Origin: an uncultured Clostridia bacterium | Lineage (GTDB): Bacteria; Acidobacteriota; Blastocatellia; UBA7656; JADIYM01 | DNA: 64,000 nt | Assembly (NCBI GenBank): GCA_964641945.1 | Contig: CAZXLQ010000001.1 | Location: 13,725 to 77,724, forward strand | Direction: 5' to 3' | In this document: positions 116-60,346 of the stretch, one piece after another | Layout of the letters: the number at the start of each line of letters is the position of its first letter | How positions within the stretch are numbered: position 1 is the stretch's first letter | Translations under genes and position numbers: made by a program | The notes under the pieces: generated by a model | What the model saw: only the letters and a program-made list of their open reading frames with translations | What the model was told of the DNA's origin: nothing | Database searches by the model: none

Positions 116-1780
116 GTGTCTGCCATGATCCCGAACAGCCCGGTCGGCCGCTTCGAGCACGTCATCAAGACGTACTGGGGCAAGTCCTACAAGGGCGAGT
201 CCCTCAATGCAGCCGTGCTGGACACGCTCTACGTGACCGTATCCCTAGTGGGAGCCCACGATGCAGTGGGCCACAGGCCAAGCAACATCATCGCGCATGA
301 GCCGGGGTCCCTCACGGTGCTTTGTCGGGCAGAGGAGATGATGGTCGAGCGAACGCAGAAGCTGTTGGATCTGCCGCCTGGCCGCGTCTCGAATGAGCCC
401 GGAGCAATCGGCGAATACAGAACCAACATGCAGAAGTGGGCGGCGGCAGCTCGGGCGATGCTTGCTCGTCTTGGACAGCCCTACGAGTACGATGCCCAGG
501 GATTCATCGATTGGGATGGGGAGCAGTGGGGGTTGGCAGATCTGACTCTGGCGGCGGTCCGCCTGCCCGAGCACAACCGCTACGACTTCCTCATTCCGTG
601 GATCGGCCGTGAGCTGGTCAAGCTGTTGAAAGCTGTCATCGACTTGGCCATGGTCGAGTTTTCGGAGACTGCTTTGCGGGCTCGCAAGGACTACCGTGAC
701 GCGGTTCATCTGCTGCATGACAAGGCGCCGGCCATCGCGCAGTGGGCGAAGGAGACGCGAACCGACATCGGCAAGGTGGATCTTGCGACGGCGCTTGAAG
801 CGGTCTCCATCTACCAGTTCAAGACGAGCCTCGTCGAGCAGGGCGACATCGTCTACACGTTCAAGGACGGCTGGACTGTCCAGGAGCTGCGAACCGAGTC
901 AGCGCTCACGGCCGAGGGCAACAACATGCAGAACTGCATCGCTGGATACCACGATGCCGTAGAAGAGGGAGGCACGCGCATCTACTCGATCCGCGACAAA
1001 GCCGGGAACCCGCACGTATCGATGGAACTGCGTGGAGTTGCGCCGGTGAAGGGTGCGAGGATTCGCGGCACCCCTATGAGCCTGATCATCGGTCCGCCAG
1101 GAGCCGATTTGGGACCGGACGAGTTCATCCGCTCGCCATTGAGGATGGGCTGGTACTTTGCGCAGATCTTGGGCAAGCAGAACGACCGTCCCATCGACGC
1201 GTACCGCGAGCGCGCTCGCGAGTTCATCGACAAGATCTTCGACAAGGAGGGCTTCGGCTGGTGCATCGTTGGCGGCACGGCGAAGTGGGCACGGTTCTCA
1301 GGCCGGCAGCTTAGCAACCTAGATGTGCCGGCGATCCTGGGCCCGAACCACGTCCAAAACGATGTTCTTGCTGGAGCCGACTTCGCAGAATCGCGTCTTG
1401 AATGGACGAACCTGTCTCATCTCGATCTGACAGGATGTGTGTTCGACCGAGCAAACACGACTCGCGCTTCATTTCGCGGGGCGAGCCTTGAAGGCGCGAA
1501 GTTTGAGGGGGCCACCTGCGACCACACGGACTTTGCTGGGGCTAGGCTGGTTGGAACGTCGTTCGATTCGGCCGACTGCACCGGCTCGGATTTCCAAAAA
1601 GCACAGCTAGCGGAAGCATTGTTTCGTGACGCCCGCGTCGACGGCGCAGACTTTCATCTCGCATCTGGAGGACAACGGGCGGTCTGGGAAGGTGCCAATC
1701 TAACCATAGCTCAGACACGTCAGCTCGAAGAACTGGGCCATGTTACGCACGAGTTTCTCGTGATGAGACGTGGCGAATGA
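116..1780 (+). CDS. PcfJ-like domain protein with C-terminal pentapeptide repeats
   Basis: 554-aa ORF, GTG start; core motif WTVQELRTE..NMQNCIAGYHDAV..RIYSIRD..P.VSMEL shared with ORFs 3232-4602 and 58952-60346; C-terminal tandem A(D/N)LxxA/GxxF pentapeptide repeats. Confidence 0.6.
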   Translation: MSAMIPNSPVGRFEHVIKTYWGKSYKGESLNAAVLDTLYVTVSLVGAHDAVGHRPSNIIAHEPGSLTVLCRAEEMMVERTQKLLDLPPGRVSNEPGAIGEYRTNMQKWAAAARAMLARLGQPYEYDAQGFIDWDGEQWGLADLTLAAVRLPEHNRYDFLIPWIGRELVKLLKAVIDLAMVEFSETALRARKDYRDAVHLLHDKAPAIAQWAKETRTDIGKVDLATALEAVSIYQFKTSLVEQGDIVYTFKDGWTVQELRTESALTAEGNNMQNCIAGYHDAVEEGGTRIYSIRDKAGNPHVSMELRGVAPVKGARIRGTPMSLIIGPPGADLGPDEFIRSPLRMGWYFAQILGKQNDRPIDAYRERAREFIDKIFDKEGFGWCIVGGTAKWARFSGRQLSNLDVPAILGPNHVQNDVLAGADFAESRLEWTNLSHLDLTGCVFDRANTTRASFRGASLEGAKFEGATCDHTDFAGARLVGTSFDSADCTGSDFQKAQLAEALFRDARVDGADFHLASGGQRAVWEGANLTIAQTRQLEELGHVTHEFLVMRRGE

Positions 1781-3228
1781 ACTGGTCACCAGAACAGACC
1801 GCTTTCGTCCGCATGTGGTCCGCGGTTCTGCTTGCGTTCGGCAAAGCCGCGTTCGTTCGGGGAACCATCTCCGACGTCGTCGCTTGGTCGGAAGAGGGCG
1901 GCCCGAGAGACTACAGCATGCTCCGGGTGGCCTTTGTCGGCGATGGCATGAAGGTGGCCCGTGAGTTTGGCTACCTGAGCGCGGAGGAGGGCGAGAACCT
2001 GAATCTCGGAGCGACGGGGCCGATCTCCTACGTGGCAGCAAGACTCCTCGGGGCCAAGGACATGGCGAGGGATCTGGGGCGAGACCGCATTGCCCTGGCA
2101 GACTTGCTCGACCGACTGTCTGGGCAGGCCGTCTACGAGTTTTGTGATGCCCACGGCATCGAGATGCCGTTCACTGAAACCTCGATGAGGCTGATCGTCG
2201 AACCGGGCTACCCGTGGCCTGAAAATGACCGACCCGGGCTCGTCTACTGGTCGGCAAAGAAGCAGAAGCTGATCAAACCAGAGCGTCCGGCCTGGCTCAT
2301 CCCGGTCGAGGATCGAGACGCTCCAGGCAAGACCAAACTCGGCGTGAACCCCTGCTTGGTGTTTCCTCCAGAGAAGCGAGATCGCACGTGGCCGCTCTGG
2401 GGCCGCTCGGGGAAGCAAGACCTGATCGTCGCCCATTCGATGACGCTACTCGCAACACCTGATGCACCGTCCTTCCCGTTCTTGGGGCAGAAGTCGTACA
2501 AGCAGATCGACACGGCGATCGAGAACATCCGATCCTGCGGCGGCTTGCTCTTTCCATCGTTGTCGGTTGGAGAGATTCCAGCCTCCAACTTCGGTCCCAT
2601 CACGCTCGTCGGGCACCTCGGGCTCGTCTTGGACGGCCTGAAGCCGTTCAAGGAACGCAGGACAGACATTACCTCCTGGGTCTACGAGCATGATGCCTGG
2701 ACGGTTAGCACGGGCGAACTGATGCGCGACGTTGCGGTGCGCCTCTTCGATGAGCTGCATGGGCATGAGGACTACGTGTATGGGCACAATATCTGGGCCA
2801 TCGGTCCCCCATCTGAATGGTTCGGCGGTCCGACGCAGGGGAGCACGCCGCTGAGGACCGTCAGCGAGCTGGTGAGGGCGGCCAAGCGGCGGGGTTCGAC
2901 GTTCAAGCGTGGCATGAGTCGCGAGGCGTTCATCGCAGCCAACGAGGCCGTCGCTGGAACGGCCGACAAGTACGCGTACTGCGAGTCCAAGGGGCGGCGG
3001 GTGATCTCCCTCGACGAGTTCCCGGTCTTGGTGGCTCCGAATACGCTCGCAGATCAAGTCAGAACCTTCACACGAGGCGTCGGATACTCCGGCGAGGTGG
3101 TTTTGCTGTCCGACGAGTTCGAGGTCGTGTCGAACGACATGTCGGACGATCGCGACTACCGTCTCTTCCAGTGGTCGTGGCTCGTGGCGGACGCGGTGAA
3201 GCGGCTCGCGAAGCCGATGGAGATCTGA
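1777..3228 (+). CDS. hypothetical protein (483 aa)
   Basis: long ORF, ATGA overlap with upstream stop; no recognisable motif. Confidence 0.6.
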   Translation: MNWSPEQTAFVRMWSAVLLAFGKAAFVRGTISDVVAWSEEGGPRDYSMLRVAFVGDGMKVAREFGYLSAEEGENLNLGATGPISYVAARLLGAKDMARDLGRDRIALADLLDRLSGQAVYEFCDAHGIEMPFTETSMRLIVEPGYPWPENDRPGLVYWSAKKQKLIKPERPAWLIPVEDRDAPGKTKLGVNPCLVFPPEKRDRTWPLWGRSGKQDLIVAHSMTLLATPDAPSFPFLGQKSYKQIDTAIENIRSCGGLLFPSLSVGEIPASNFGPITLVGHLGLVLDGLKPFKERRTDITSWVYEHDAWTVSTGELMRDVAVRLFDELHGHEDYVYGHNIWAIGPPSEWFGGPTQGSTPLRTVSELVRAAKRRGSTFKRGMSREAFIAANEAVAGTADKYAYCESKGRRVISLDEFPVLVAPNTLADQVRTFTRGVGYSGEVVLLSDEFEVVSNDMSDDRDYRLFQWSWLVADAVKRLAKPMEI

Positions 3229-3231
3229 CCC

Positions 3232-4602
3232 ATGCTACTCGAAGACGCGACATCGAAGGAACAGGTAGAGGCGGCACTCGCGGCCGGAGATGAGGAGCTA
3301 CGCGAAGACATCAACGAGCAGTTGTCGGTCGCCAAGAGGCGATGGGAGCAAGACGGCTACGCTTGCGAGACAGAGGAATGGAGCTTCTCCGAGTGGGGGA
3401 CCGACAACGAAGTGTTTGCAGAGGAGATCGTCAAGCAGAGCCCGCAGCGATTCGACCTCTCTGAGGTGCCTATCAAGTCCGTCCTGGACGCCGTCAACTA
3501 CCAGATCGGCCGCGTTCGCTCAGGGATCTTTCACCTCTACGATCGGCCTCGCTACTCATCTGTTGGGTTTCACTACTCAGTCGAACTCGAAATGTATTGC
3601 CGCTTTGACTCGTCAGACGCTCCGAAGGGTGCGGAGTACATTCCGGAAGACATCGCGAAAGAGTTCTGGGAAGATCTTGGATACGGCGTCGAGTGGGAGA
3701 GAACGGACCGCATTGGTGAGAACTTCGGCTACCGACGAGACTCTGGTGAGTCGGTGGACATCTACATTACGGAGGAGGACTTCGACGAGTTCTGCCGTGA
3801 CATCCGAAGCGAGTACATTCGCTCAGTCCGAAAGGAAAAGCCGAAGGACGTCGTCCCACTGTTTCTCAGCTCGCTGAAGGGCTATTCGAGCGACTTGTAC
3901 AACAAGCTGGTGGCCAAGAAGTTCTCCAAGGACGTTCTTCTGAAGCTCGCCGACTGGTGGTACGAAACAGAAGAGAACGGCGAGGACCCGTCTGAGATGC
4001 TCAAGAGCTGCATCGACGATCCACACGAAGGCGAAGAGCGTGAGGTGGTGGCGACCTTCTCGAAGGAGGAGATTCGCTCCATGGGCATCACCAGCGGCCC
4101 GCTGCTCGAAGAGGCTCCGTGGACGCTCGTGAAGCTGCTTCCTCCTTCGGACACGTGCATGGAAAGCGTCTTTCTCGGCCACTGCGTTGGCGAACCGGAT
4201 CGAGGCTACAATGACGCGATCGAGCGCGGAGAGATTGAGATCTGGTCACTCCGCTCTCGCTTCGGAAAGCCGCGCTTCACGCTGGAGGTGGACACCGACT
4301 TCTACAATGAGTCGGTTCCAATCGTTGACGGAAGGCCGATGACCGATGGAGATCGGGCCAACACCATCAAGCAGATCAAGGGCAAAGGCAACCGCACGCC
4401 TGGCTACGAACGAGCGAACCTACGAGGACCCGAAGTTCGGTTCCCAGATGAGGTCATCTTCTGGAGGCAAGTCTTCAAAGACATCGGCGTCGATCCGGAA
4501 GGGGTCGATGACTTCGACGCCGCGCGAGACGTGCCAGCGCTCGAAAGGAATGTGAGCCGCAACGCAACGAGGAGCTTCGACGAACCGTACGAGCCGATGT
4601 GA
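3232..4602 (+). CDS. PcfJ-like domain protein (paralog, no pentapeptide tail)
   Basis: motif WTLVKLL..SVFLGHCVGEPDRGYNDAI..IEIWSLRSRFGKPRFTLEVD parallels ORF 116-1780 core. Confidence 0.55.
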   Translation: MLLEDATSKEQVEAALAAGDEELREDINEQLSVAKRRWEQDGYACETEEWSFSEWGTDNEVFAEEIVKQSPQRFDLSEVPIKSVLDAVNYQIGRVRSGIFHLYDRPRYSSVGFHYSVELEMYCRFDSSDAPKGAEYIPEDIAKEFWEDLGYGVEWERTDRIGENFGYRRDSGESVDIYITEEDFDEFCRDIRSEYIRSVRKEKPKDVVPLFLSSLKGYSSDLYNKLVAKKFSKDVLLKLADWWYETEENGEDPSEMLKSCIDDPHEGEEREVVATFSKEEIRSMGITSGPLLEEAPWTLVKLLPPSDTCMESVFLGHCVGEPDRGYNDAIERGEIEIWSLRSRFGKPRFTLEVDTDFYNESVPIVDGRPMTDGDRANTIKQIKGKGNRTPGYERANLRGPEVRFPDEVIFWRQVFKDIGVDPEGVDDFDAARDVPALERNVSRNATRSFDEPYEPM

Positions 4603-4611
4603 GGTGGAACA

Positions 4612-4962
4612 GTGCGGGTGCCTTCACCAGAGAGAAGCGTCGTCCTGGAGCTGTACCGGCCGTCGTTGGTCACCAGAGAGTTCGAGCTTGCTGCGTCTGC
4701 TCAGTGCTTTTCTGTAGCCGAGGCTCATCGAGTCATCCGAGCCAACCGAGGGGCAGACCTAGCGATCGTGACGTGGCGCGAGAAGCGCTGGTCCTGGCTT
4801 CGCGTTGGAAACGATTGGCGACGCATCCCGCTCTGGTCCGTGCAGGACGTGCCCTATACGACGCAGGTGCGGGTCACCGTGACGCGGCGGCCAGAATCCG
4901 AGCACCTGAGCTACGGTGACCTGGACGCGTATGTGCTCGCCAAGTTCAAGCGAAGGCGGTAG
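4612..4962 (+). CDS. hypothetical protein
   Basis: GTG start preceded by GAGGTGG; 116 aa. Confidence 0.5.
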   Translation: MRVPSPERSVVLELYRPSLVTREFELAASAQCFSVAEAHRVIRANRGADLAIVTWREKRWSWLRVGNDWRRIPLWSVQDVPYTTQVRVTVTRRPESEHLSYGDLDAYVLAKFKRRR

Positions 4963-4979
4963 GTGCGTTCGATGAGCTG

Positions 4980-7832
4980 ATGTGCGAGGATCTGACCCAC
5001 ATGTCGGGCTACGACTCCGCCATCGAAGTCGGGAAACCACCCCTCACCTGTCCGCTTACGGGTGAACCACTGCATACCCGGACCGAGGTCGAGAGGGGTA
5101 TCAGCGACGAGGCTTGGGCCAAGCAGTTCGAGAACCCGAAGGTGCGACTCGGACCCGTCAGCCGAGAGAAGATGGAGGAGGCCATCGCGCTGGCTCCAGA
5201 ACCGCTCAAGAAGGCCTGGGAGCCTTTGCTGGGCCGCCAACACGGGCTCGACAGCGACGACACCAGGGCCGCCATGGTGGTCACTGGCCTGCGGGTCGCC
5301 TCGATGGCCATTTCGTACGGTTCCGATGCCAACAGAACGACGGTTTTGCGGGTGGATTCGGCGATGTTGGCGGTCGTCGTGGTTCAGAACTTCGCGAAAG
5401 CGGCTGGCTGGACCAATGTCGCGCAGGGACTGAACAACCGGTTCCACCGAGAGCTGCGGAGCGGGATCTTGCGCATGAAGGAACGCGCCGGGCGTCCTGG
5501 AACGCTCGGGATCCACGCTCCTTTCGATCAGCAGTGGAACGATCTCTGCCGAGCCAACCGCAACCTCTTCTTCGACCAGGAGAAGGAGGGGTCGCTTTTC
5601 TGGAGGTACTTCCACGAGAGCGATCTTCGCTACGTTGTGAATCTGCTTCAGTCCGCGTTTGGCGACGCTCTCATCGAAACCCAGGAGGGCAAGCTCCTAC
5701 TGCTTCCCTCAATGCCGCTACCAGCGCTGCCCAAGGCCGCGGAACGTCACGTCCCCAAGGGACCGAGGGCGACGAACGAGATCCACAAGATCGACCCAGC
5801 CATTGACGCCCTCCGTGTCGGCGACAAGGTCGTACTGCCGGATGGGACCGAGTCGATCATCCAGTTCATCGACGGACGAAAGTCGAAAATCGGCGTCGCT
5901 GACAAGCGCGGTCCACGGAACAGTTACACCTGGTTCGGCTTCGTCGAGATCGAAACCGTGAACGGGAAGAAGGTCGCCGAAGAGCTGTACCGGCAACGCG
6001 TGCAGCAAGCGACCAGGGACGGCTACCCGGAAAGCGTGGTCGCCCCGACGAAGATGCCGCCGAAGATCCCTGCTGGTGCTCAACTCAAGTCGAACCAGCT
6101 CGCCAATCTGGACTTCATCGAAACGCGTCGTCGGGTCATCGTGGCCGATGAGCCGGGACTCGGGAAGACGATCAGCGCTCTACTCGCCATCGAGACGCCG
6201 GCCATCATCGTGTGTCCGGCCCACCTCAAAGCCAACTGGGTGAGCGAAACGACCAAGTGGCGACCAGATCTCAACCTTCTTGCCGTCTCAGGCGGCAAAA
6301 CGCCAGAGCTGAAGGCGATCCGCAACGCCGACACGATCCTCATCAACTACGAAATCGTCGAGCCGCACCTGGAGTGGCTCATGCAGTTTCGTCCGAAAAC
6401 GATCGTCGCCGACGAAGCCCACTACCTGAAGACGCTGACAGTCGAGCGTGACAAGGAAGGCTTCTTCAAGCCGGCCGACGACAGCAGCATCCGCGCGTCG
6501 GCGTTCTACCGGCTGCACTTCGCCGCACCCAAGCTCGTCCTGCTTACGGGCACCCCATTGCTGAACCGCGTCAAGGAACTGTTCCCGCTGCTCCACATGG
6601 TCGACAGCCGAGAATGGAGCAACCAGAAGGAATTCCAGAAGAAATACTGTGCCGCCGGCTATTCGGTGAAAGGCGGCAGGCAGATTTGGGACGCCAACGG
6701 CCGGTCCAACACCCAAGAGCTGCACGAGAAGATCAAAGGCAAGTACATGATCCGCCACACCAAGGCGGACATCCTGACCGAGCTGCCTCCCAAGACCCGT
6801 CGAACCGTGGAGCTGCCCCTCGACCCGGTCACCGCCAAGGTCTACCAGGAGATGCAGGAAGACTTCATTGCGTGGCTGGAACGCCAAGAGGGCGGTCGAA
6901 AGCGTGTCGAGCGAGCTATGCGAGCCGAGGTTCTCGTGCGGCTCACGGCTTTGAGACGAACCTCAGCTTTCGGGAAAGCTCCCGCTCTCGCACTCGTCAT
7001 CCGCGACTTCTTCGCTTCGACAGCCGGCACCCGCCCTCTCGTCGTGATGGGAGTTTTCAAGGAGCCGCTTCTTCGCCTGGCCCGCTTCATCGAGAAGTTC
7101 AACCAGGAGTTCGAGCAGGCGAACGCGACGCCTGGTGCCGACACAGACATCCCGAGGCAGATCCGCTACGCGATGTACACCGGCGCCGAGACGCCGAAAC
7201 AACGCGCAAAGACGGTCGAGGAGTTCCAGTCGGGAAACATCGACGTGGTCTTCTATTCGATCCCGCTTGGCACCGGCACCACTCTGACCGCATCCAGCGA
7301 CGTGTTCTTCATCGAGCGCCTCTGGCGACCATCCGACCAAGTCCAAGCCGAGGACCGTGTGCATCGCATCGGGCAGAGCAAAGGCGTCATGATCACCTAC
7401 TACGACGCCACCGGCACTGTCGACACGAAGATGGGGATGCTCCTGCTCGACAAGACCGACGCAGCGGCCGAGGTCATCGACGGGCTTCAGCTCTCGCGCA
7501 ACGAGTCGCTTGCGCTCGTCTACGGAGAGATGACGGCAGGGCTTCGGAAGGGGTTTGCCGGTTCTTCGTTCGAGGAGATGACGGCAAGCGACATCCTGGA
7601 CGAGGCGTATGCTGCGTCGATCGACCTCGACAGGCAGATCATGAACGCCGACGGCGCTCAAGAAGTGGACGAAGACCAGGTTCTAGCCGACGTGCGCCGC
7701 CAGTTGAAGGAGATCGAAGCCCGTGAGAAGGCTCGGGCGGTCAAGAAGAACCGCCACGCGACCGACCGTGACGAAATGATCGTCATGAACGGATGGGACG
7801 AGCCCATCTACTTGCTGCACGACGAAGACTGA
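4980..7832 (+). CDS. SNF2-family DNA-dependent ATPase/helicase with ~340-aa N-terminal extension
   Basis: motifs DEPGLGKT (Walker A), DEAHYLK (DEAH box), LLTGTPLLN, helicase-C QAEDRVHRIGQ. Confidence 0.85.
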   Translation: MCEDLTHMSGYDSAIEVGKPPLTCPLTGEPLHTRTEVERGISDEAWAKQFENPKVRLGPVSREKMEEAIALAPEPLKKAWEPLLGRQHGLDSDDTRAAMVVTGLRVASMAISYGSDANRTTVLRVDSAMLAVVVVQNFAKAAGWTNVAQGLNNRFHRELRSGILRMKERAGRPGTLGIHAPFDQQWNDLCRANRNLFFDQEKEGSLFWRYFHESDLRYVVNLLQSAFGDALIETQEGKLLLLPSMPLPALPKAAERHVPKGPRATNEIHKIDPAIDALRVGDKVVLPDGTESIIQFIDGRKSKIGVADKRGPRNSYTWFGFVEIETVNGKKVAEELYRQRVQQATRDGYPESVVAPTKMPPKIPAGAQLKSNQLANLDFIETRRRVIVADEPGLGKTISALLAIETPAIIVCPAHLKANWVSETTKWRPDLNLLAVSGGKTPELKAIRNADTILINYEIVEPHLEWLMQFRPKTIVADEAHYLKTLTVERDKEGFFKPADDSSIRASAFYRLHFAAPKLVLLTGTPLLNRVKELFPLLHMVDSREWSNQKEFQKKYCAAGYSVKGGRQIWDANGRSNTQELHEKIKGKYMIRHTKADILTELPPKTRRTVELPLDPVTAKVYQEMQEDFIAWLERQEGGRKRVERAMRAEVLVRLTALRRTSAFGKAPALALVIRDFFASTAGTRPLVVMGVFKEPLLRLARFIEKFNQEFEQANATPGADTDIPRQIRYAMYTGAETPKQRAKTVEEFQSGNIDVVFYSIPLGTGTTLTASSDVFFIERLWRPSDQVQAEDRVHRIGQSKGVMITYYDATGTVDTKMGMLLLDKTDAAAEVIDGLQLSRNESLALVYGEMTAGLRKGFAGSSFEEMTASDILDEAYAASIDLDRQIMNADGAQEVDEDQVLADVRRQLKEIEAREKARAVKKNRHATDRDEMIVMNGWDEPIYLLHDED

Positions 7833-7839
7833 AAAAGGT

Positions 7840-7880
7840 GACGGGCTCGACGCCGGGGGGGAGATGCAGTCGAGCCCGTC
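7840..7880. terminator. 12-bp perfect inverted repeat hairpin between convergent genes
   Basis: GACGGGCTCGAC ..17 nt.. GTCGAGCCCGTC immediately after SNF2 stop; no clear U-tract. Confidence 0.35.
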
Positions 7881-7961
7881 TGGCAAGCGCCCGTGCGCCT
7901 TTCAGCACGCCGCCGGCCGTGAGGTGGAACCATAGACGCACTGCCGCCGGATGTCCAGCGA

Positions 7962-8285
7962 CTACGTCGTCTTGCGGGCGATCCGAAGCAAGATCAGGTA
8001 CCCGAGCAAGTCCTGCACGACGTCCTCTCCAGCAGCTTGTCCGCGAGAAAGTCGCGAGAGCTTGTCGTCGATGCGGACGAGAATCTGTTCCTCGATCGAC
8101 GCCTTCGAGAATACGCGAACCGGTTGAAGCGCGCTGTTGCCGTAGGCCGCGTTCTTTTCCATCAGCATCGAGGCGAGGCGGAGGCATTCCATGACGATGT
8201 CGAATCCCATCGGAGACGTGCTGAGCTTCGGCAACACCTCCTTTTGAAACTTGGCTTCCAGTTCCAGCTTTCGTCCTTCGGTCAT
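7962..8285 (-). CDS. hypothetical protein
   Basis: 107-aa ORF. Confidence 0.5.
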   Translation of the reverse strand: MTEGRKLELEAKFQKEVLPKLSTSPMGFDIVMECLRLASMLMEKNAAYGNSALQPVRVFSKASIEEQILVRIDDKLSRLSRGQAAGEDVVQDLLGYLILLRIARKTT

Positions 8286-8659
8286 GGCGCTTCTCCGAGT
8301 GCGAACGTCTCACCAGCTTGTGTGAGACGGTAGCCGTAGAACGCTGGTTCGACCAGACCATCTCGTTCCGCCAAACGCAACATCGCGGCTGCACTGGCAC
8401 GCAGCGCGTTGCGACGCTGTGGCGTTGCATTCTTCCACGTAGTCCAAAATCGCTCGGCGAGCACCTCTGGTGTGGCTCCCAATCCGGCTGGGCCAGCGCC
8501 GCTGTTCAAGAGGATGATCACCACCTTCAGGAACACCTGCGTCATCCTCGACGGTTTCTTTCCATCTGCTTCCATCGGTTCTTCTTGTCCTCTTTCCGCT
8601 GCTTCTTGTTCTTTTCGCTCTCGATGATTCGGTTGGGATCGTGCTCTGCACAGTACCAC
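8282..8659 (-). CDS. hypothetical protein (start uncertain)
   Basis: 125-aa ORF, TGA/start overlap with downstream gene. Confidence 0.45.
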   Translation of the reverse strand: MVLCRARSQPNHRERKEQEAAERGQEEPMEADGKKPSRMTQVFLKVVIILLNSGAGPAGLGATPEVLAERFWTTWKNATPQRRNALRASAAAMLRLAERDGLVEPAFYGYRLTQAGETFALGEAP

Positions 8660-8831
8660 CTAGTAACACCCTGGTGATCAACCCGTTCTCGATGCCCTGG
8701 TCGACCACAGGTCTCCCACAGCCAACGGAACGGGTGCCCAGCGCAACGAGGCTGCTCGGGTGGCGACGGATCCGGATGGCCAAGCCGTCGAAGCGTCTCG
8801 CGACATCGCTTGTCCGTCTTCTTGTCTGCAA

Positions 8832-9245
8832 TCACGACTCCAACTCCCTCAGAGCCTCCACAAGACCATCTTCGGCCAGCGAAGCGCGATGGCAACGATC
8901 GCAGAAGCCCATGCGTCTGTAATGGTTCGGGCAGTCCTCGGTGTCACGCCAGAACGCCGCCGCTTCTGCGACCGCCTCCAGCGCTGCAACCCGCTCGGCG
9001 CTCGGCGGTAGCCTAGCTGAACCACGAACCTGCGCTCGGTAGCACGGACGACAGCGTTTCGACCCGGGATCGACCAAGCGCTTGCCGCACTCACGACAGT
9101 CGCTCACGGGATCGGGTCCTTGGGCTTCGGTTCGCGCTTCCACAGGCGCACCCATCGCTCGACGACAGCGTCTACCTTTGCTGTTGCCCACTCGTTTACC
9201 GCGTTGTGACGAGACGTTCCGTCTAGACGACGCTGCGCTTCCCAA
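8832..9245 (-). CDS. zinc-ribbon protein (hypothetical)
   Basis: CRECGKR..CRPC and CPNH..CDRC cysteine pairs; TTG start, true start may be internal Met. Confidence 0.45.
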   Translation of the reverse strand: MGSAASSRRNVSSQRGKRVGNSKGRRCRRAMGAPVEARTEAQGPDPVSDCRECGKRLVDPGSKRCRPCYRAQVRGSARLPPSAERVAALEAVAEAAAFWRDTEDCPNHYRRMGFCDRCHRASLAEDGLVEALRELES

Positions 9246-9721
9246 CGAGCCACATCATGATGTGCATAGGTCTCGTATAGAACCCGCCCGAGGAGTCGCG
9301 TCATGGCACTGACAGCCCGATCGACCTGGTGCTCTGCCGCAACCTTCATCGCGAGTCCTACGGTCAGTTTCTCTGGAGCGTCTCCGACATCGGTCGACGC
9401 GGCGTTGGAGGCGAATGGCATGTAGATCCCACTGCCGTTGTCCAGATCTGACACACCAAGCCGCTGGATAATAGCCCTACGCACCTCTGCCTTCGCCCAC
9501 ATGACAGTGTCAGGCCATTCGTCGACCAATCGCTCGACTAGAAGCATCTTCGCCCGTCGCTGCGCCTTCGATCTGCGCCCGAGGAGATCCGACACTTCGT
9601 TCTGGCTCACCGTGTTGTCGTCCACCAGAGCGTCCAGCATCTCGCTGTCTGCCGCCTGTGGCCCGAAAATACCGCCCGAAGTGAAGAGGCCTCCGGTAAT
9701 ACCGCTGTCGTCGTCGCTCAT
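9104..9721 (-). CDS. hypothetical protein
   Basis: 205-aa ORF. Confidence 0.55.
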   Translation of the reverse strand: MSDDDSGITGGLFTSGGIFGPQAADSEMLDALVDDNTVSQNEVSDLLGRRSKAQRRAKMLLVERLVDEWPDTVMWAKAEVRRAIIQRLGVSDLDNGSGIYMPFASNAASTDVGDAPEKLTVGLAMKVAAEHQVDRAVSAMTRLLGRVLYETYAHHDVARWEAQRRLDGTSRHNAVNEWATAKVDAVVERWVRLWKREPKPKDPIP

Positions 9722-10203: not shown

Positions 10204-10214
10204 TGGTACATCGA

Positions 10215-49003: not shown

Positions 49004-49007
49004 GTAG

Positions 49008-49940: not shown

Positions 49941-49960
49941 GATCTTGTTCCTGTTGCTGT

Positions 49961-50249: not shown

Positions 50250-51700
50250 CTACTCATGCCAGATGTCCGACAGGCCGTCAAGCGAAAAAGTGATCGTTCT
50301 TTCGACCCACACTTCCCTACGAATCGTCGGGGCTCTCGATCGGCGCTCGTCGGGTCGGACCCTCCAGTTTGCCATCCGGACCACATTCTTCTTGTAGGAC
50401 TTCGGGCACTGGGGTCATCCCTCTTCGGGCCGCTCAGGTCGCTGCACAACCGACCCGAGCGAGCACCACGCTCGTACCGAGCGCCTTCACATTCTGAGCC
50501 GCGTTCACGTCACGGTCCACCACGTATCCGCACGGGCAGCGGTGCTCACGGACGCTCAGGTCCTTGGGCACCACGATTCCGCACCGGCTACAGCGCTGGC
50601 TCGTGCCGCGAGCATCGACCGCCACACACCACTTGCCGGCACTCTCAGCCTTGCAAGCTACGGCATGCACCAGCGTGCTCCACGCAGCATCCGTCACCGA
50701 CTTGGCCAGCACACCAGCCGCCAAGCCCTTCACGTTCAAGTCTTCGACTGCGATGACGTCATACTTCGCCACCAACACGCACGCGAGCTTGCGTGCGAAG
50801 TCGAGCCGTTGCTGCCGCACGTGGGCATGCGCCTTGGCCACGAGCCGCTGAGCGACCCTGGCCCCCTGCGTGGACTTCTGCCCGCGGCGCCGTCGCCGCG
50901 CCAGGCGCTGTTGGCGCATGGCCAACTGGTCTTCGGCCTTTCGGAAGAACCGCGGCGCGGCGATGGTCTCGCTGTCGCTCGTCGCCACCAGCGACGTAAG
51001 CCCCACGTCGATTCCGACCACGCTCTGAGCGGCCTCGGCTGCCGGCACCTTTGGTGGTGCGGCGCCCAGGTCGCAACTGAAGCACACGAACCAGCGGCCG
51101 GTCGCTTCGCGGCGGACGGTAACGTTGCGGATGGCACCCGTGAGCGACCGGTACTCGTGGAACCGCACCAGGCCGAGCTTGGGGATACGGACGTGCGCCG
51201 AGCGCGTGCCGCGCTGAGCGGCGACCGGCGCAACTCGGCCGACCTCGAAGCTGTCGTAGCGAGAAAGCGACCGGAAGCGAGGGTAGCCCGGCTTCTGGCC
51301 CGCCTTCACGCGGCGGAAGAACGCCTGGAAGGCGCGATCGCAGCGACGGAGCGCCGAACGTTCGACCTCGACGGGGATGCTGGCGATGATCTCGTCGGAA
51401 GACCGGAGCGAGGTCAGCTCGGCGGTTTGGCTGTTGTAGGTCACGATCGGCGCGGGCTTGCGCTCGACGCCGCGATCGGTGGCCGCCTGCCGCTGGCGCT
51501 TCTCGTGCTCCCACGCGTCTCGCCGGTGCTGGAGCGCGGCGTTGTAGAGCTGCTGGCAGGTCCGCAGCCAAGAACCGAGCGTGGTCTCCTGGGCGACGGT
51601 CGGATGTAGCGGGTAGCGGAAGGTGCGGAGCAAGAGGGGTATGGTGTGAAGGGCAAAGTCAAATGTCAAATGCCTCCACTACCCGGACTCGCACAGGCGA
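50250..51700 (-). mobile_element. IS200/IS605-family TnpB-only element (IS1341-like remnant; ends not defined)
   Basis: tnpB with no tnpA; expected omegaRNA region downstream of tnpB 3' end at about 50250-50480. Confidence 0.45.
50434..51669 (-). CDS. tnpB: TnpB (OrfB) RuvC-like transposon-associated nuclease
   Basis: N-terminal RTFRYPLHPT..QLYNAAL; C-terminal zinc finger CSRCG..CPCGYVVDRDVNAAQN. Confidence 0.85.
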   Translation of the reverse strand: MTFDFALHTIPLLLRTFRYPLHPTVAQETTLGSWLRTCQQLYNAALQHRRDAWEHEKRQRQAATDRGVERKPAPIVTYNSQTAELTSLRSSDEIIASIPVEVERSALRRCDRAFQAFFRRVKAGQKPGYPRFRSLSRYDSFEVGRVAPVAAQRGTRSAHVRIPKLGLVRFHEYRSLTGAIRNVTVRREATGRWFVCFSCDLGAAPPKVPAAEAAQSVVGIDVGLTSLVATSDSETIAAPRFFRKAEDQLAMRQQRLARRRRRGQKSTQGARVAQRLVAKAHAHVRQQRLDFARKLACVLVAKYDVIAVEDLNVKGLAAGVLAKSVTDAAWSTLVHAVACKAESAGKWCVAVDARGTSQRCSRCGIVVPKDLSVREHRCPCGYVVDRDVNAAQNVKALGTSVVLARVGCAAT

Positions 51701-57620: not shown

Positions 57621-57844
57621 GCCAGCGACAGGTCCTGAGGACGGAACTCGAACGTCTTGCCGCTCCGCAAGGCGACCTTCACGCGGGCGATCCTGCCTTC
57701 CAGGCGGACGCCCACGACCTTGCCGACCGCGCTCTCCTTCAACCCGTGCGTCTTCTGCATCGCAACGGGGACACGAACGGTCACCTTGGCGTTCTTCTTC
57801 TGCGTGATTTCTGCGAGGTTCACTGTTGGCTCCTGTCGAGTCAC
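57617..57844 (-). CDS. small beta-rich putative DNA-binding protein divergent from integrase (candidate regulator)
   Basis: GTG start; KVTVRVPVAM..VVGVRLEGRIARVKVAL. Confidence 0.5.
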   Translation of the reverse strand: MTRQEPTVNLAEITQKKNAKVTVRVPVAMQKTHGLKESAVGKVVGVRLEGRIARVKVALRSGKTFEFRPQDLSLA

Positions 57845-57860
57845 TCGACTGGATACAGGG

Positions 57861-57869
57861 TGTCAGACA
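57861..57869. promoter_or_regulatory. TGTCAGACA operator-like site in int / divergent-regulator intergenic region
   Basis: between GTG 57844 (minus gene) and int ATG 57910. Confidence 0.45.
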
Positions 57870-57909
57870 GACGGGGACGAGTCAACTTCGATGCGCTATC
57901 CTCGTGCCC

Positions 57910-58947
57910 ATGAACGAACTGGCCTTTGTGACTCGGGAGACGAGGATGCTCCAGAGGTTCGGCAAGGGCGACGAGCGCAAGCTCAAGAGCTACCTGCTCA
58001 TGCTCGCAGCCTTCCTCGAAGGACGGCCCGAGAACACCAGGCGGTCCTACAAGACGGCGATTCGTCAGTTCTTCGAGATGTTCGACTGGATCTGCCCCGA
58101 GGATGTCACCGTTGCCCACGCTGTTGCGTTCAAGAAGCGACTCGGCGAACGCGTCGGAGATGCCACGGTCTACTACCGCATCTCGGCTCTGAAGTCGTTC
58201 TTCGACTTCCTGAGGAAGCCGGCGGGTGCGACCGAGCAGGCGCTCATCACTTCAAACCCGTTCGACCTCGTGCCACGTTCGGACATCAAGCCGACGCCGT
58301 ACGGTCGAGCGACGGTAATGGATTGGTCGACGTTCATGAAAATCTACGACGCCATTCCAGGTGATCCGCTCGGTCTTCGAGACAAGGCGATCTTGCTCTT
58401 CTTCGCCTTCACCGGAAGGCGGCGAACAGAAGTGGCCTCGCTTCGCATTCGCGATCTCGATCTGAAGTCGACGCCCAAGAAGTACACGGTTCGCGTGAAA
58501 GGCGGCGAAGTGAAGACCTGGCAGTTGCCGCAGATCTGCTACGACGCTCTCAAGGCGTACTGGATTGCCTCCGACCGTCTTTCGGGTCTACAGCCGGACG
58601 ACGGCGTGTTCACCGCATCGGACGAGACGCCGCTGACGAGTCGGCTCGAACCGAACCGACCGCTGGCATCGCGGACGATGAACGAGATCTTGCTTCGAGC
58701 TGCTCGTCGCGCTGGCGTAGACCGCAAGGTCGCTCACATTCACGCGCTTCGCCACATGTCCGCCAGAGACCTCGACGAGGCTGGCGTTCGGTTGCAGGAC
58801 ATCCAGGAGTTCCTCGGCCATCTCAACCCGAACACGACGGCCATCTATCTTCAGAAGATCGGACGAACCGGGCCCGCTCACGAAGAGCGGCTCATCGCCA
58901 TTCGAGAAGCCGCAGAAAAGCTCGCAATGGGTCTGAAGTCAACCTGA
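57910..58947 (+). CDS. int: tyrosine integrase/recombinase (XerC/D-like)
   Basis: box II AHIHALRHM and LGH..TTAIYLQ catalytic Tyr region; core-binding-like N-domain. Confidence 0.85.
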   Translation: MNELAFVTRETRMLQRFGKGDERKLKSYLLMLAAFLEGRPENTRRSYKTAIRQFFEMFDWICPEDVTVAHAVAFKKRLGERVGDATVYYRISALKSFFDFLRKPAGATEQALITSNPFDLVPRSDIKPTPYGRATVMDWSTFMKIYDAIPGDPLGLRDKAILLFFAFTGRRRTEVASLRIRDLDLKSTPKKYTVRVKGGEVKTWQLPQICYDALKAYWIASDRLSGLQPDDGVFTASDETPLTSRLEPNRPLASRTMNEILLRAARRAGVDRKVAHIHALRHMSARDLDEAGVRLQDIQEFLGHLNPNTTAIYLQKIGRTGPAHEERLIAIREAAEKLAMGLKST

Positions 58948-58951: not shown

Positions 58952-60346
58952 TCATTTCCGAACGCGGGTGGTCCCAAGCATCGCACCACGATCTTCCGGA
59001 TCGACATCCGGAGGCCACTTGGTGCGCGAATCGTATCTCGCACGGTACAAATCGGTCTCGAAAAGGTTTGCGCCGAAAAGATTCGATCCGTATAGAGCGG
59101 CACCAGAGAGGTTGGCGTGCGAGAGGTCGGCGTGCGAGAGGTCGGCGTGCGAGAGGTCGGCGTGGGCCATCCTTGCTCTCGAAAGGTCCGCGCCAGACAG
59201 GTTCGTGTTGCTCAGTTGACGGCCGATCAGGTCTGCGCCGGCCAGGTCTCGTCCCGCCAGTGATGCGCGAGAAAGCAGAATCCCGTTTGGCTCGCCGCCC
59301 TTTCCTCTATCGACGAACTCCACGACCATCGACCGGATCGCCTCGACCACAGCTTTGACTTCGTGCCCTCCCAATGGCGGCTCGTTGTCCTGTCCCGCTT
59401 GCAGCACGTAGGTGGCGAACTGAGCGTCCCCGATGTTCGAGTTGGCTTGCCCGAAGATCTGCAAGAAGCTCCCGCCCCAACGATTCTCATTTGACGGCTT
59501 CCACTCCATCGTGACGTACGGGACGCCGTCCGGGTCTCGTAGCGAGTAGATCACGCTATCGCCGTGCTCCACCGCCTCGCAGTATGTTCCGACGCAGTGG
59601 CTGAGGGCTTTCCCCTCAGGCTCCAGCTCCCGCCTGCCTCGCAGCTCTTGCACGGTCCATCCGGTCGGGAACCGGTAGACGACCTTGCCCTGGCGCACCT
59701 TCTTCGAGTAGCGGAAGGTCTTGATCGCTTCGAGGACTTCCGCGAGCGACTTCTTCATCAGATCGATGCGATTCAGCTTCGCCCACTGAGCGATGGCATT
59801 GCCTGACCGGCGGAGCCTTCCAAGAGCCTCCTCGTAGTCACGGTACTCGTCCAGCGGTGCAAGGTTCTCCTCGATTGCCTTCTCCACAGCCGTGATGGTG
59901 TGCTTCGAGAGCTTGCTCAGCTCACGAGCCACCCACGGAAAAATCCCGTCTGCCTCGTGCGGCTCACGCATGGCACCGCCAGCGAACGTCGGCAACGCGA
60001 TCGTCTCAAGCAGCAAACGAAGAAGATGCCGATGGCCCGCAGGACCAACCGGCCAATAATCGTGCTCTACGAGGCGTACGTATCCGAGGTTTGAGATGCC
60101 CAACCATTGAAAACTTGGTCGCGGAAGACCTGTGACGAGAGAGCCGCCCGAGTAGAGATCAAGAAGGTCTCGGCGACCTTTCCCATGGGCCTCGTAATAC
60201 GCGTCCTCGACCTCTCGCCACGACTCGTCGATTCCGATGGTTGGGAAGATCACGCTGAGCGTGTCGAGCACGACCCATGGTTGCTTCTCGATGTACATCT
60301 TGGTGATGTACTGAAGCCGGTCGATCGCTGCGTTCTTCGTCAGCAC
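58952..60346 (-). CDS. PcfJ-like domain protein with C-terminal pentapeptide repeats (paralog of 116-1780)
   Basis: WTVQELRGRRELEPEGKALSHCVGTYCEAVEHGDSVIYSLRD; ADLSHADLSHADLSHANLSGAAL repeats; GTG start 1 nt after upstream stop with GGGGG RBS. Confidence 0.6.
   Translation of the reverse strand: MLTKNAAIDRLQYITKMYIEKQPWVVLDTLSVIFPTIGIDESWREVEDAYYEAHGKGRRDLLDLYSGGSLVTGLPRPSFQWLGISNLGYVRLVEHDYWPVGPAGHRHLLRLLLETIALPTFAGGAMREPHEADGIFPWVARELSKLSKHTITAVEKAIEENLAPLDEYRDYEEALGRLRRSGNAIAQWAKLNRIDLMKKSLAEVLEAIKTFRYSKKVRQGKVVYRFPTGWTVQELRGRRELEPEGKALSHCVGTYCEAVEHGDSVIYSLRDPDGVPYVTMEWKPSNENRWGGSFLQIFGQANSNIGDAQFATYVLQAGQDNEPPLGGHEVKAVVEAIRSMVVEFVDRGKGGEPNGILLSRASLAGRDLAGADLIGRQLSNTNLSGADLSRARMAHADLSHADLSHADLSHANLSGAALYGSNLFGANLFETDLYRARYDSRTKWPPDVDPEDRGAMLGTTRVRK

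What the first reader, a model, noticed from the sequence alone, without database searches (positions are those of the whole stretch)
116..60346. Three PcfJ-like paralogs, two fused to pentapeptide-repeat tails, placed at opposite ends in inverted orientation
ORFs 116-1780, 3232-4602 and 58952-60346 share a ~60-aa core (WT(V/L)..L...E....HC(V/I)G.Y...(I/V)..G...IYSLR....P..T.E). The first and last add C-terminal (A/S)(D/N)LxxA pentapeptide repeats (ADLSHADLSHADLSHANLSG..). Pentapeptide-repeat proteins mimic DNA (Qnr, MfpA), so fusion to a conjugation/phage-associated PcfJ-like domain hints at a DNA-mimic or anti-defence function duplicated within one phage. Their inverted positions about 58 kb apart could mark the edges of a mobile region.
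Basis: partly seen in the sequence, partly recalled or inferred. Interest (0 to 1): 0.5.

Follow-up and report, generated by a model that had tools for sequence, protein, structure and literature searches.

The report
Phage PcfJ-like effector family, swappable tails
A probable large phage carries at least five old copies of a gene with an uncharacterised "PcfJ-like" module, and two copies end in a short pentapeptide-repeat helix that close relatives swap as a cassette, which suggests modular host-targeting effectors rather than markers of a mobile-element edge.

Summary
ORFs 116-1780 (+), 3232-4602 (+) and 58952-60346 (-) are homologous. The first and last share 34% identity over 337 aa (E 1e-45). 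Both pass Pfam PcfJ narrowly and Pentapeptide clearly. The middle ORF shares only the ~90-aa core.

The "opposite ends" layout is a window artefact. Contigs 100% identical to the window show two more PcfJ paralogs just upstream, so four paralogs sit in one tight cluster ending at an SNF2 helicase. The paralogs share no DNA similarity, and there are no inverted repeats.

The replicon looks like part of a large tRNA-rich phage. It has 27 tRNAs, and its relatives are IMG/VR contigs of 62-171 kb. No structural genes were found.

The PcfJ core is a huge family (about 21,000 cluster representatives). It often occurs 2-6 times inside giant phage proteins alongside ART-PolyVal, 2H, InPase and SLT domains.

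New here: in both PPR paralog lineages, near-identical variants differ sharply only in the tail. The N-module is 99.7% identical and the tail about 50%. In one variant the pattern is reversed.

The AlphaFold core resembles half a GNAT fold, but the scores are below threshold.

Best reading: these are unbundled polyvalent-type effectors with a constant PcfJ head and an exchangeable PPR targeting tail. The biochemical function is still unproven.

The parts
116..1780 (+). PcfJ-PPR paralog, 554 aa ('554-type'). It has an N-terminal helical region, a PcfJ core at about nt 809-1270 with a ~45-aa insert between beta3 and beta4, and a pentapeptide beta-helix at about nt 1331-1690.
   Evidence: Pfam PcfJ 27.2 bits and Pentapeptide 59.6 bits. 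It is 34% identical to the 464-aa paralog, E 1e-45. It has its own ortholog family of 38 proteins.
1777..3228 (+). 483-aa protein of unknown function. Its start overlaps the stop of the 554-aa gene. It is a conserved partner gene.
   Evidence: No Pfam, PHROG, NCBIfam or PDB hit. A 32%-identical homologue sits in the same position after the PcfJ-PPR gene in viral contig L015.
3232..4602 (+). 456-aa very acidic protein (net charge -41, pI 4.5). It carries only the PcfJ-like alpha/beta core, at about nt 4120-4398.
   Evidence: No Pfam hit. BLASTP to the paralogs gives E 7e-7 to 1.6e-4 over 56-95 aa. The family core HMM gives E 1.4e-10. Charge.
4612..4962 (+). 116-aa basic protein lying between the PcfJ cluster and the helicase.
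   Evidence: ORF with high GC3. It is called in Logan contigs. There is no family hit.
4980..7832 (+). SNF2-family helicase, 950 aa. It is the last gene of the rightward cluster.
   Evidence: Pfam SNF2-rel_dom 3.9e-33 and Helicase_C. PHROG 62 DNA helicase 3.3e-84. Homologues of 41-45% identity lie downstream of PcfJ-PPR genes in L010, L011 and L015.
58952..60346 (-). PcfJ-PPR paralog, 464 aa ('464-type'). It has an N-terminal helical region, a PcfJ core at about nt 59393-59686, and a pentapeptide beta-helix at about nt 58991-59293.
   Evidence: Pfam PcfJ 33.2 bits and Pentapeptide 58.5 bits. AlphaFold pLDDT 90. It equals P0001 from an NCBI contig of 78,797 bp.
58952..59430 (-). Exchangeable or hypervariable 3' cassette of the 464-aa gene, covering the linker helices and the whole PPR tail (codons ~305-464).
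   Evidence: Against variant contig L029 the nucleotide identity is 45-77% here and 98-100% on both flanks. At protein level, residues 1-310 are 309/310 identical and residues 311-456 about 50%.
59106..59164 (-). 15-nt tandem repeat with 3.9 copies at 97% match. It encodes the HADLS pentapeptide run and is an in-frame way to lengthen or shorten the beta-helix.
   Evidence: Tandem Repeats Finder.
57826..58947 (+). Tyrosine recombinase (integrase), convergent with the 464-aa gene and 4 nt from it.
   Evidence: Pfam Phage_integrase 2.3e-23. Homologues of 54% identity lie about 7 kb from the PcfJ-PPR gene in L010 and L011.
60348..61190 (-). N-acetylmuramidase with a hydrophobic C-terminal segment, immediately upstream of the 464-aa gene on the same strand.
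   Evidence: Pfam Muramidase PF11860 1.4e-15. The same 280-aa gene is called in L029.

Best explanation
The three ORFs belong to a family of at least five old paralogs on one replicon, most likely a large tRNA-rich phage.

Four of the five share a ~330-aa module: a helical N-domain plus a ~100-aa PcfJ-type alpha/beta core. The core carries invariant polar residues, E...HC...Y...SLRD...E...QxKGKxN. The fifth paralog keeps only the core.

The C-terminal part varies. Two copies here have a short pentapeptide-repeat beta-helix. Two copies have an unrelated ~250-aa region. Relatives instead carry an N-terminal ART-PolyVal ADP-ribosyltransferase domain.

I read the family as the unbundled equivalent of phage 'polyvalent proteins'. 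The constant PcfJ module would be the working head, either an enzyme or a cofactor/ligand-binding domain. The PPR beta-helix would be an exchangeable target-recognition module that docks the head onto a host protein, possibly by imitating DNA. The proteins would act in host takeover or counter-defence together with the adjacent SNF2 helicase.

Shown: the homology, the domain architecture, the clustering, the membership of the core in giant multi-domain phage proteins, and the cassette-like exchange of the tail.

Inferred: effector role, timing of action, catalytic activity and target.

The position of the copies at the two window ends has no biological meaning.
For: Homology and architecture.

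Two extra paralogs (570 and 571 aa; PcfJ 62 and 58 bits) lie upstream on contigs 100% identical to the window. The resulting cluster is 570-154-571-374-554-483-456-116-SNF2, and several gene junctions overlap.

The core family has 21,064 cluster representatives at E<=1e-3. Its top members are 1,000-3,800-aa proteins with 2-6 core copies. Their co-domains are 2H, InPase, SLT, Topo IB, CCA/polyA polymerase and HD. ART-PolyVal is fused in P0038, P0042 and L017. Iyer et al. 2017 (PMC5512222) list ART, 2H, InPase, lysozyme/SLT and SNF2 as polyvalent-protein domains, and 2H and InPase as phage-specific.

Both PPR paralog types are kept as separate ortholog lineages in the same large genomes. P0022 and P0316 share a 171,466-bp contig, and P0013 and P0332 share a 165,978-bp contig. 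They sit next to SNF2 homologues.

Tail exchange:
- P0002 vs the 464-aa protein: 99.7% identity in the N-module and about 50% in the tail, with 98-100% nucleotide flanks.
- P0302 vs the 554-aa protein: about 87-100% in the N-module and 21-73% in the tail.
- P0301 vs the 554-aa protein: the reverse, with the tail 97-100% and the N-module 73-97%.
- PPR run length varies from 7 to 24 pentapeptides among relatives.
- A 15-nt in-frame tandem repeat lies inside the tail.

Precedent for a PPR domain as an appended targeting module on effectors: Foldseek hits to the beta-helix domains of NleL and SopA, and NCBIfam similarity to PipB/PipB2.

The invariant polar residues persist across very distant members, which suggests catalysis or specific ligand binding.
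Against: - No experiment or annotated homologue assigns any function to PcfJ. Literature searches found none.
- No phage structural gene was found in the 64-kb window or in about 17 kb of flanks. 'Phage' therefore rests on the tRNA array, PHROG hits to DNA-metabolism genes, and the IMG/VR labels of relatives.
- Nothing shows that the proteins are made early, packaged or injected.
- Tail divergence could reflect relaxed constraint on a repeat rather than selection for new targets.
- Iyer et al. 2017 do not name PcfJ or pentapeptide repeats.
Confidence: 0.45

Rival explanations
1. The PPR tail is itself the effector. It would be a Qnr/MfpA-like DNA mimic that binds gyrase, a restriction enzyme or another DNA-binding host protein. 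The PcfJ module would be only a carrier or oligomerisation domain.
For: The tails are true right-handed PPR beta-helices with a mildly acidic surface (net -5 and -6, pI about 5.1). Foldseek lists QnrB1, MfpA and AlbG among the hits. Exchange of the tail fits a part that contacts a variable host target.
Against: Qnr and MfpA NCBIfam models score 17-26 bits against cut-offs of 240-500. The best structural matches are cyanobacterial Rfr-type PPRs. The 464-aa tail has about 16 pentapeptides, roughly 4 coils, against the 183-218-residue Qnr/MfpA models. The strictly invariant polar residues sit in the PcfJ core and not in the tail. The same head is fused to ART-PolyVal or to other tails in relatives.
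Confidence: 0.15
2. The PcfJ-type module is not catalytic. It would be a delivery or anchoring module, for example a packaging signal or a domain that binds the capsid interior, the DNA or a T4SS. It would bring assorted cargo domains (PPR, ART, 2H, InPase, SLT) into the recipient cell.
For: The same core is attached to many unrelated effector domains and is repeated 2-6 times per giant protein. The family name comes from a gene of the pCF10 conjugation region (my own knowledge). Both PcfJ loci here lie next to a peptidoglycan-related gene: the muramidase at 60348-61190 and a weak PG_binding_1 hit at L005:3439-4029.
Against: Invariant E, C, S, R, Q, G and N across members with less than 30% identity is more typical of an active or ligand site than of a docking surface. 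ART domains, which are clearly enzymes, are also multiplied within polyvalent proteins (PMC5512222), so repetition does not argue against catalysis.
Confidence: 0.2
3. The PcfJ core is a true GNAT-type acyl-CoA transferase that acylates a host protein chosen by the tail.
Confidence: 0.1
4. The two inverted PcfJ-PPR genes are terminal duplications that bound a mobile or invertible segment of about 58 kb.
For: The copies are in opposite orientation, and a tyrosine recombinase lies next to the distal copy.
Against: The window start is an arbitrary cut, with at least 13 kb of the same contig upstream, including two more paralogs. The copies are only 34% identical as proteins and share no alignable DNA. 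Self-BLAST shows no inverted repeats. Both types are old, separately conserved ortholog lineages. Gene order from 60.3 kb to 42.6 kb is collinear with the 171-kb viral contig L009.
Confidence: 0.02
5. The tail variation is made by a diversity-generating retroelement, since PcfJ-like proteins have been listed as DGR targets.
For: A DGR survey lists a PcfJ-like motif upstream of the variable region in some CPR target genes (PMC5758913). The variable part here is also C-terminal.
Against: No template repeat of the tail region occurs anywhere in the window, and no reverse transcriptase was seen among the scanned ORFs. Divergence of 45-77% over about 470 nt, with length changes, is far beyond adenine-directed DGR mutagenesis.
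Confidence: 0.02

Closest known systems
PcfJ-like protein family (Pfam PF14284), named after PcfJ of Enterococcus faecalis plasmid pCF10
   Same: They share the core with the HC(V/I)G.Y ... YSLRD ... QxKGKxN signature. Two window proteins and both upstream paralogs pass the Pfam cut-off.
   Different: Here the core sits behind a ~210-aa helical domain specific to this phage clade. It is followed by a PPR beta-helix or other tails and is present in five separate genes. The setting is phage-like, not a conjugation operon. tblastn with the N-module finds nothing in 72,556 plasmids and one weak hit in 50,697 phages. The family has no known function.
Polyvalent proteins of phages and conjugative elements (Iyer, Burroughs, Anand, de Souza, Aravind 2017, PMC5512222)
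   Same: The PcfJ core occurs inside 1,000-3,800-aa phage proteins together with ART-PolyVal, 2H, InPase and SLT, often in several copies. The cluster here ends in an SNF2 helicase, which is a hub domain of that network.
   Different: The modules here are separate mid-sized ORFs in a tight cluster rather than one giant polypeptide. Neither PcfJ nor pentapeptide repeats are mentioned in that paper. Delivery with the DNA is not shown.
DNA-mimic pentapeptide-repeat proteins Qnr, MfpA and AlbG
   Same: They share the right-handed quadrilateral beta-helix built of A(D/N)LxX-type pentapeptides, with a mildly acidic surface.
   Different: Scores are far below the family cut-offs. The tails are about half the length. 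They are not stand-alone proteins but C-terminal tails. No dimerisation element was identified. The best matches are generic cyanobacterial PPRs.
Bacterial type III effectors with a PPR beta-helix domain (SopA/NleL, PipB/PipB2)
   Same: A PPR beta-helix is appended to a separate functional domain in a protein delivered into another cell. The structural and HMM similarity is at the level of generic PPRs.
   Different: The partner domain is a HECT-like ligase or another domain, not PcfJ. The targets are eukaryotic. Scores are far below the family cut-offs, for example 43.6 bits against 274 for PipB.
GNAT acyl-CoA N-acyltransferases
   Different: The C-terminal half of the GNAT fold is absent. 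There is no sequence-level relationship. The conserved residues (E, HC, SLRD) do not correspond to the usual GNAT catalytic positions.

Membership tests
PcfJ-like (Pfam PF14284) | Score at or above the Pfam gathering threshold of 25 bits | tested here: met
   554 aa: 27.2 bits. 464/487 aa: 33.2 bits. Upstream paralogs: 62.4 and 58.0 bits. The 456-aa protein does NOT meet it, with no hit at E<=1. It is linked only through a clade-specific HMM at E 1.4e-10.
PcfJ-like (Pfam PF14284) | Conserved core signature E...HC.G.Y...SLRD...P(H).T.E...Q.KGK.N | tested here: met
   It is present in all five paralogs and in distant giant proteins. The 554-aa copy has NC in place of HC.
Pentapeptide-repeat proteins (Pfam PF00805) | Tandem A(D/N)LxX pentapeptides above the gathering threshold of 20.2 bits | tested here: met
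   59.6 and 58.5 bits. About 16 and about 25 pentapeptides in register.
Pentapeptide-repeat proteins (Pfam PF00805) | Right-handed quadrilateral beta-helix | tested here: met
   The AlphaFold model has a one-residue strand every 5 residues from 367 to 437 at pLDDT 94-98. Foldseek to solved PPRs reaches E 8.5e-9. This rests on a predicted structure only.
Qnr / MfpA DNA-mimic topoisomerase-protection proteins | Score above the NCBIfam equivalog cut-off (Qnr 240, MfpA 360) | tested here: not met
   Qnr family 22.1-25.7 bits and MfpA 23.6-26.0 bits.
Qnr / MfpA DNA-mimic topoisomerase-protection proteins | Stand-alone protein of ~180-220 aa forming a rod about the size of a DNA duplex | tested here: not met
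   The tails are about 100 and 140 aa and are fused behind a 350-385-aa module.
Qnr / MfpA DNA-mimic topoisomerase-protection proteins | Binds gyrase or topoisomerase IV and protects it from poisons | not testable with these tools
   This needs biochemistry.
Polyvalent proteins (Iyer et al. 2017) | Several unrelated effector domains in one large polypeptide of a phage or conjugative element | tested here: inconclusive
   The window proteins have two recognisable modules (PcfJ and PPR) and are 456-554 aa. Relatives of the core are true giants with ART-PolyVal, DUF7178, 2H, InPase and SLT.
Polyvalent proteins (Iyer et al. 2017) | Domain-network link to established polyvalent domains (ART, MPTase, SNF2, ParB, 2H, InPase) | tested here: met
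   ART-PolyVal+PcfJ fusions in P0038, P0042 and L017. 2H, InPase and SLT in multi-PcfJ giants. An SNF2 gene is adjacent here and in L010, L011 and L015.
Polyvalent proteins (Iyer et al. 2017) | Delivered into the target cell together with the DNA | not testable with these tools
   No virion proteome or expression data are available.
GNAT acyltransferases | Complete beta1-alpha1-alpha2-beta2-beta3-beta4-alpha3-beta5-alpha4-beta6 fold with the beta4/beta5 splay that holds acyl-CoA | tested here: not met
   The model has no strands after the helix at 308-318. Stand-alone family members end about 10-35 residues after the QxKGKxN loop.
GNAT acyltransferases | Significant structural or sequence match | tested here: inconclusive
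DGR variable target proteins | Template repeat near-identical to the variable region, plus a reverse transcriptase nearby | tested here: not met
   No second copy of nt 58952-59430 occurs in the window. No RT was found among the scanned ORFs. The rest of the genome was not seen.
Terminal inverted repeats of a mobile element | Nucleotide-level inverted repeats at the two ends | tested here: not met
   Self-blastn finds only local tandem repeats at 42.1-42.6 kb and tRNA paralogs. Between the paralogs the best patch is 54 nt at 76%.

The most novel reading that the evidence does not exclude
The PcfJ-type core is an unrecognised enzyme or cofactor-binding domain derived from half a GNAT-like fold, with a Glu/His-Cys/Arg site. 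Large phages would deploy it in many copies. The pentapeptide beta-helices would be interchangeable DNA-shaped 'address labels' that phages swap by recombination to redirect the enzyme to different host DNA-binding defence or housekeeping proteins. This would be a modular effector system analogous to polymorphic toxins but used for host takeover. It would also give phage pentapeptide-repeat proteins a concrete role.
Probability: 0.12. Interest if true: 0.8.

Novelty: new variant of a known kind. Interest (0 to 1): 0.5.

Why it matters
PcfJ-like domains are very common, with about 21,000 cluster representatives in the library searched. They sit in the giant 'polyvalent' proteins that phages and conjugative elements are thought to send into cells with their DNA, yet no function is known for them. 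Phage pentapeptide-repeat proteins are just as obscure.

This genome offers a simple and tractable version: mid-sized single-module genes, five paralogs, and natural chimeras in which the head and the tail have been exchanged between nearly identical genomes. Those chimeras mark exactly where the functional modules begin and end. They also point to the tail as the part under pressure to change. Together this gives concrete constructs for testing what both domains do.

Tried and rejected
- **Nucleotide match to known phages.** blastn of window 1-8000 against INPHARED found nothing.
- **Single-protein scans.** Scans of IMG/VR and of species-representative genomes with the 464-aa protein found nothing. 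An alignment-based scan of the genomes also found nothing. tblastn of the N-module against plasmids found nothing.
- **Exact-sequence look-ups.** Look-ups of P0001 and of the UvrD helicase gave no record.
- **Circular link between window ends.** I suspected that a 273-aa gene at the start of L005 was the window's 273-aa gene at 61975-62796, which would have joined the two window ends on a circle. blastn shows no match, so I rejected the idea.
- **ART reading of the 374-aa gene.** The 374-aa gene between the paralogs has an 'LYHAT' motif, so I considered an ADP-ribosyltransferase. It has no Pfam hit at E<=10 and no BLASTP similarity to the ART-PolyVal part of P0038. Rejected.
- **Partner genes.** The partner genes (154, 374, 483, 116 and 305 aa) show no similarity to one another.
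- **Core-only search in the word-indexed database.** It returned only 32 short proteins and was uninformative about architectures.
- **AFDB50 fold search.** The library was not available.
- **Full-length fold search.** It returned only PPR proteins, so a trimmed model was needed.
- **Phage structural genes.** None turned up in four Pfam/PHROG batches.
- **Literature.** Searches found no functional study of PcfJ.


Full report
**1. Checking the observation**

The three ORFs are present as described. Pfam gives PcfJ (PF14284) at 27.2 bits for the 554-aa product of 116-1780. It gives 33.2 bits for the product of 58952-60415/60346, against a cut-off of 25. Pentapeptide (PF00805) scores 59.6 and 58.5 bits against a cut-off of 20.2. 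The 456-aa product of 3232-4602 has no Pfam or PHROG hit.

By BLASTP the first and last proteins are 34% identical over 337 residues (E 1e-45). Their relationship therefore covers a ~330-aa module, not just a 60-aa motif. The 456-aa protein matches the others only over 56-57 residues (E 7e-7 and 2e-5). It does hit an HMM built from the clade's own core at E 1.4e-10.

The true start of the last gene is the ATG at 60346. That start gives the 464-aa protein held by NCBI (P0001, from a 78,797-bp contig). It follows the stop of the upstream muramidase gene by one base.

**2. The layout is a window artefact, and there are more copies**

Three Logan assemblies carry sequence 100% identical to window 1-14,602 and continue upstream. 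That upstream DNA holds two further paralogs of 570 and 571 aa, with PcfJ at 62 and 58 bits. They are 39% identical to each other and 28-32% identical to the window's PPR copies.

The real arrangement is a rightward cluster. In order it reads 196, 305, PcfJ-570, 154, PcfJ-571, 374, PcfJ-PPR-554, 483, PcfJ-core-456, 116 and then the SNF2 helicase of 950 aa. Several gene junctions overlap. The fifth copy lies at 58952-60346 on the other strand, behind a muramidase and convergent with a tyrosine recombinase.

The paralogs share no alignable DNA; the best patch is 54 nt at 76%. The window contains no inverted repeats. The suggestion that the copies bound a mobile region is not supported.

**3. What the replicon is**

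The window has about 61% G+C throughout. It encodes the following:
- SNF2 and UvrD helicases and a ParB-like protein
- DNA methyltransferases
- two glycosyltransferases
- a nucleoside deoxyribosyltransferase
- an HNH endonuclease
- a TnpB protein and an integrase
- a muramidase

It also carries 27 tRNA genes in a 6.6-kb array at 43,441-50,041.

An alignment-based scan of IMG/VR found relatives of the whole PcfJ module on viral contigs of 62-171 kb. These contigs share many other genes with the window: integrase at 54%, SNF2 at 41-45%, HNH at 74% and muramidase at 43%. The 171-kb contig has 28 tRNAs in the same order next to its PcfJ-PPR gene.

No close DNA or N-module protein match exists in INPHARED phages or PLSDB plasmids. 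None exists in species-representative genomes.

I therefore take the source to be part of a large, uncultured, tRNA-rich phage. One caveat applies: I found no structural gene in the window or in about 17 kb of flanks.

**4. The PcfJ core in the wider protein world**

A profile of the core finds 21,064 cluster representatives at E<=1e-3, 7,537 at E<=1e-10 and 1,299 at E<=1e-30. The best hits are proteins of 1,000-3,800 aa with two to six copies of the core.

All 26 top hits scanned have PcfJ. Individual proteins add 2H, InPase (PF18823), SLT, topoisomerase IB, CCA/polyA polymerase, HD or Lar domains.

In IMG/VR the core is embedded in proteins of 990-2,216 aa, one of them with ART-PolyVal and DUF7178. 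Close relatives of the 464-aa protein carry ART-PolyVal at the N-terminus instead of a PPR tail (P0038 and P0042).

ART, 2H, InPase, lysozyme/SLT and SNF2 are the domains that Iyer et al. (2017, PMC5512222) describe in 'polyvalent proteins'. That paper proposes that phages and conjugative elements deliver these large proteins with their DNA. It mentions neither PcfJ nor pentapeptide repeats. I found no functional study of PcfJ.

**5. Structure**

An AlphaFold model of the 464-aa protein, built with 46 homologues, has a mean pLDDT of 90. It divides as follows:
- Residues 1-210 are helical.
- Residues 221-318 form the core: two short strands, two helices, three strands, a loop and a helix.
- Residues 327-349 form a long helix.
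- Residues ~360-440 form a regular beta-helix with one strand every five residues.

The full model matches only PPR structures. Cyanobacterial Rfr-type proteins score best (E 8.5e-9). Qnr, MfpA and AlbG score weaker, as do the beta-helix domains of the effectors NleL and SopA.

The invariant Q296-x-x-G299-x-x-N302 loop follows the third core strand, where GNAT motif A sits. However, the domain ends after the next helix. This holds in the model and in short stand-alone family members. The half of a GNAT that forms the acyl-CoA cleft is therefore missing.

I conclude that the core resembles half a GNAT fold and is not a demonstrated GNAT. The invariant E, (H)C, S, R, Q, G and N across members below 30% identity argue for a catalytic or ligand-binding site.

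**6. The tails**

The 464-aa tail has about 16 pentapeptides, roughly four coils. The 554-aa tail has about 25 and is less regular. Net charges are -5 and -6. Against NCBIfam, the Qnr and MfpA models reach only 17-26 bits where 240-500 are required. Among relatives the PPR run varies from 7 to 24 pentapeptides.

**7. The most informative new result: tail exchange**

Contig L029 is 98.4-98.7% identical to window 64,000-49,667. Within the PcfJ-PPR gene, however, nucleotide identity falls from 98-100% to 45-77% at about codon 305. It returns to about 90-100% after the stop codon. At the protein level, residues 1-310 are 309/310 identical and residues 311-456 about 50%.

The 554-type shows the same mosaic. 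P0302 is mostly 87-100% identical in 30-residue blocks up to residue 390 and 21-73% in the tail. P0301 is the reverse, with a 97-100% identical tail and a 73-97% identical head.

Head and tail therefore have different histories, and the junction lies just after the conserved QxxGxxN loop. A 15-nt tandem repeat with 3.9 copies, encoding HADLS, lies inside the tail. It gives a second, slippage-based route to changing helix length.

There is no DGR-like template repeat.

Both PPR paralog types are kept side by side in other large contigs of the clade. The duplication is therefore old and both copies are maintained.

**8. Interpretation**

The best-supported reading is a multigene family of polyvalent-type effectors, encoded here as separate genes. 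Each gene has a constant PcfJ module and a replaceable C-terminal module. The pentapeptide helix probably acts as the specificity or targeting part.

This fits four observations. The polar invariants lie in the head. The head is combined with many different partner domains. The tail is exchanged between near-identical genomes. Secreted bacterial effectors offer a precedent for PPR domains as appended recognition modules.

Whether the tail works by imitating DNA, and what the head does chemically, remain inferences.

Rival readings are listed with what would refute them:
- the tail as a Qnr-like effector in its own right
- the PcfJ module as a delivery or anchor domain
- a true GNAT enzyme
- mobile-element boundaries
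- a DGR target

**9. Verdict**

The 'edges of a mobile region' idea is wrong. The DNA-mimic or anti-defence idea is plausible but untested. The case is a new variant of a known but uncharacterised kind. It is of moderate interest because it supplies natural head/tail chimeras that make two obscure and very common phage domains experimentally approachable.

Noticed in passing
window 43441-50041 (- strand): An array of 27 tRNA genes covering most amino acids, interspersed with small ORFs and an HNH endonuclease at 44943-45587. The 171-kb viral contig L009 has 28 tRNAs in the same order.
   Followed up: partly
L005:4946-6658 and L005:7119-8834 (upstream of window position 1; L005:9886 = window 1): Two further PcfJ paralogs of 570 and 571 aa, 39% identical to each other. 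Each has a ~250-aa non-PPR C-terminal region containing repeated W..(D)AG motifs that match no known family.
   Followed up: partly
window 3232-4602: The 456-aa core-only paralog is extremely acidic (net -41, pI 4.5; the N-terminal 280 aa are net -32). That composition is seen in phage DNA-mimic proteins, so this copy is as good a DNA-mimic candidate as the PPR tails, or better.
   Followed up: no
window 50434-51669 (- strand): A TnpB/IS605 OrfB-type gene of 411 aa (OrfB_IS605, Cas12f1-like TNB, HTH) next to the tRNA array. No TnpA was noticed. It is also present in variant contig L029.
   Followed up: no
window 42081-42564, inside ORF 42037-42681 (- strand): Diverged tandem repeats with a period of about 72 nt and 71-75% identity, lying within a 214-aa ORF.
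   Followed up: no
window 32303-36510 and 40403-41089 (- strand); 15544-16491 (+): Two glycosyltransferases, two methyltransferases, a nucleoside 2-deoxyribosyltransferase homologue and a DNA methyltransferase. Together they could be a DNA or nucleotide modification module.
   Followed up: no
window 57826-58947 (+); L010:1749-2795 and L011:753-1802: A tyrosine recombinase sits 4 nt from the 3' end of the 464-aa gene. In L010 and L011 its 54%-identical homologue lies about 1.3 kb from a tRNA-Arg(CCT) gene. Its 3' end (nt ~58780-58947) is also less conserved against L029, at 88-92%.
   Followed up: partly
window 60348-61190 (- strand); L005:3439-4029: Each PcfJ locus has a peptidoglycan-related gene upstream. 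One is an N-acetylmuramidase with a hydrophobic C-terminus. The other is a basic 196-aa protein with a weak PG_binding_1 hit (E 0.005).
   Followed up: no
proteins P0153-P0178 (representative library): Giant proteins of 1,000-3,500 aa carry 2-5 PcfJ cores each (up to 6 elsewhere in the top 150). One has a eukaryotic-type topoisomerase IB core. Others have a CCA/polyA polymerase head, LRV/HEAT repeats, or a sub-threshold Lar restriction-alleviation match of 25.5 bits against a 28.6 cut-off.
   Followed up: partly
window 23807-26929 (+): A ParB-like protein (PHROG 1033, E 4e-31) is directly followed by a UvrD-type helicase of 721 aa. No ParA was seen among the ORFs I scanned.
   Followed up: no
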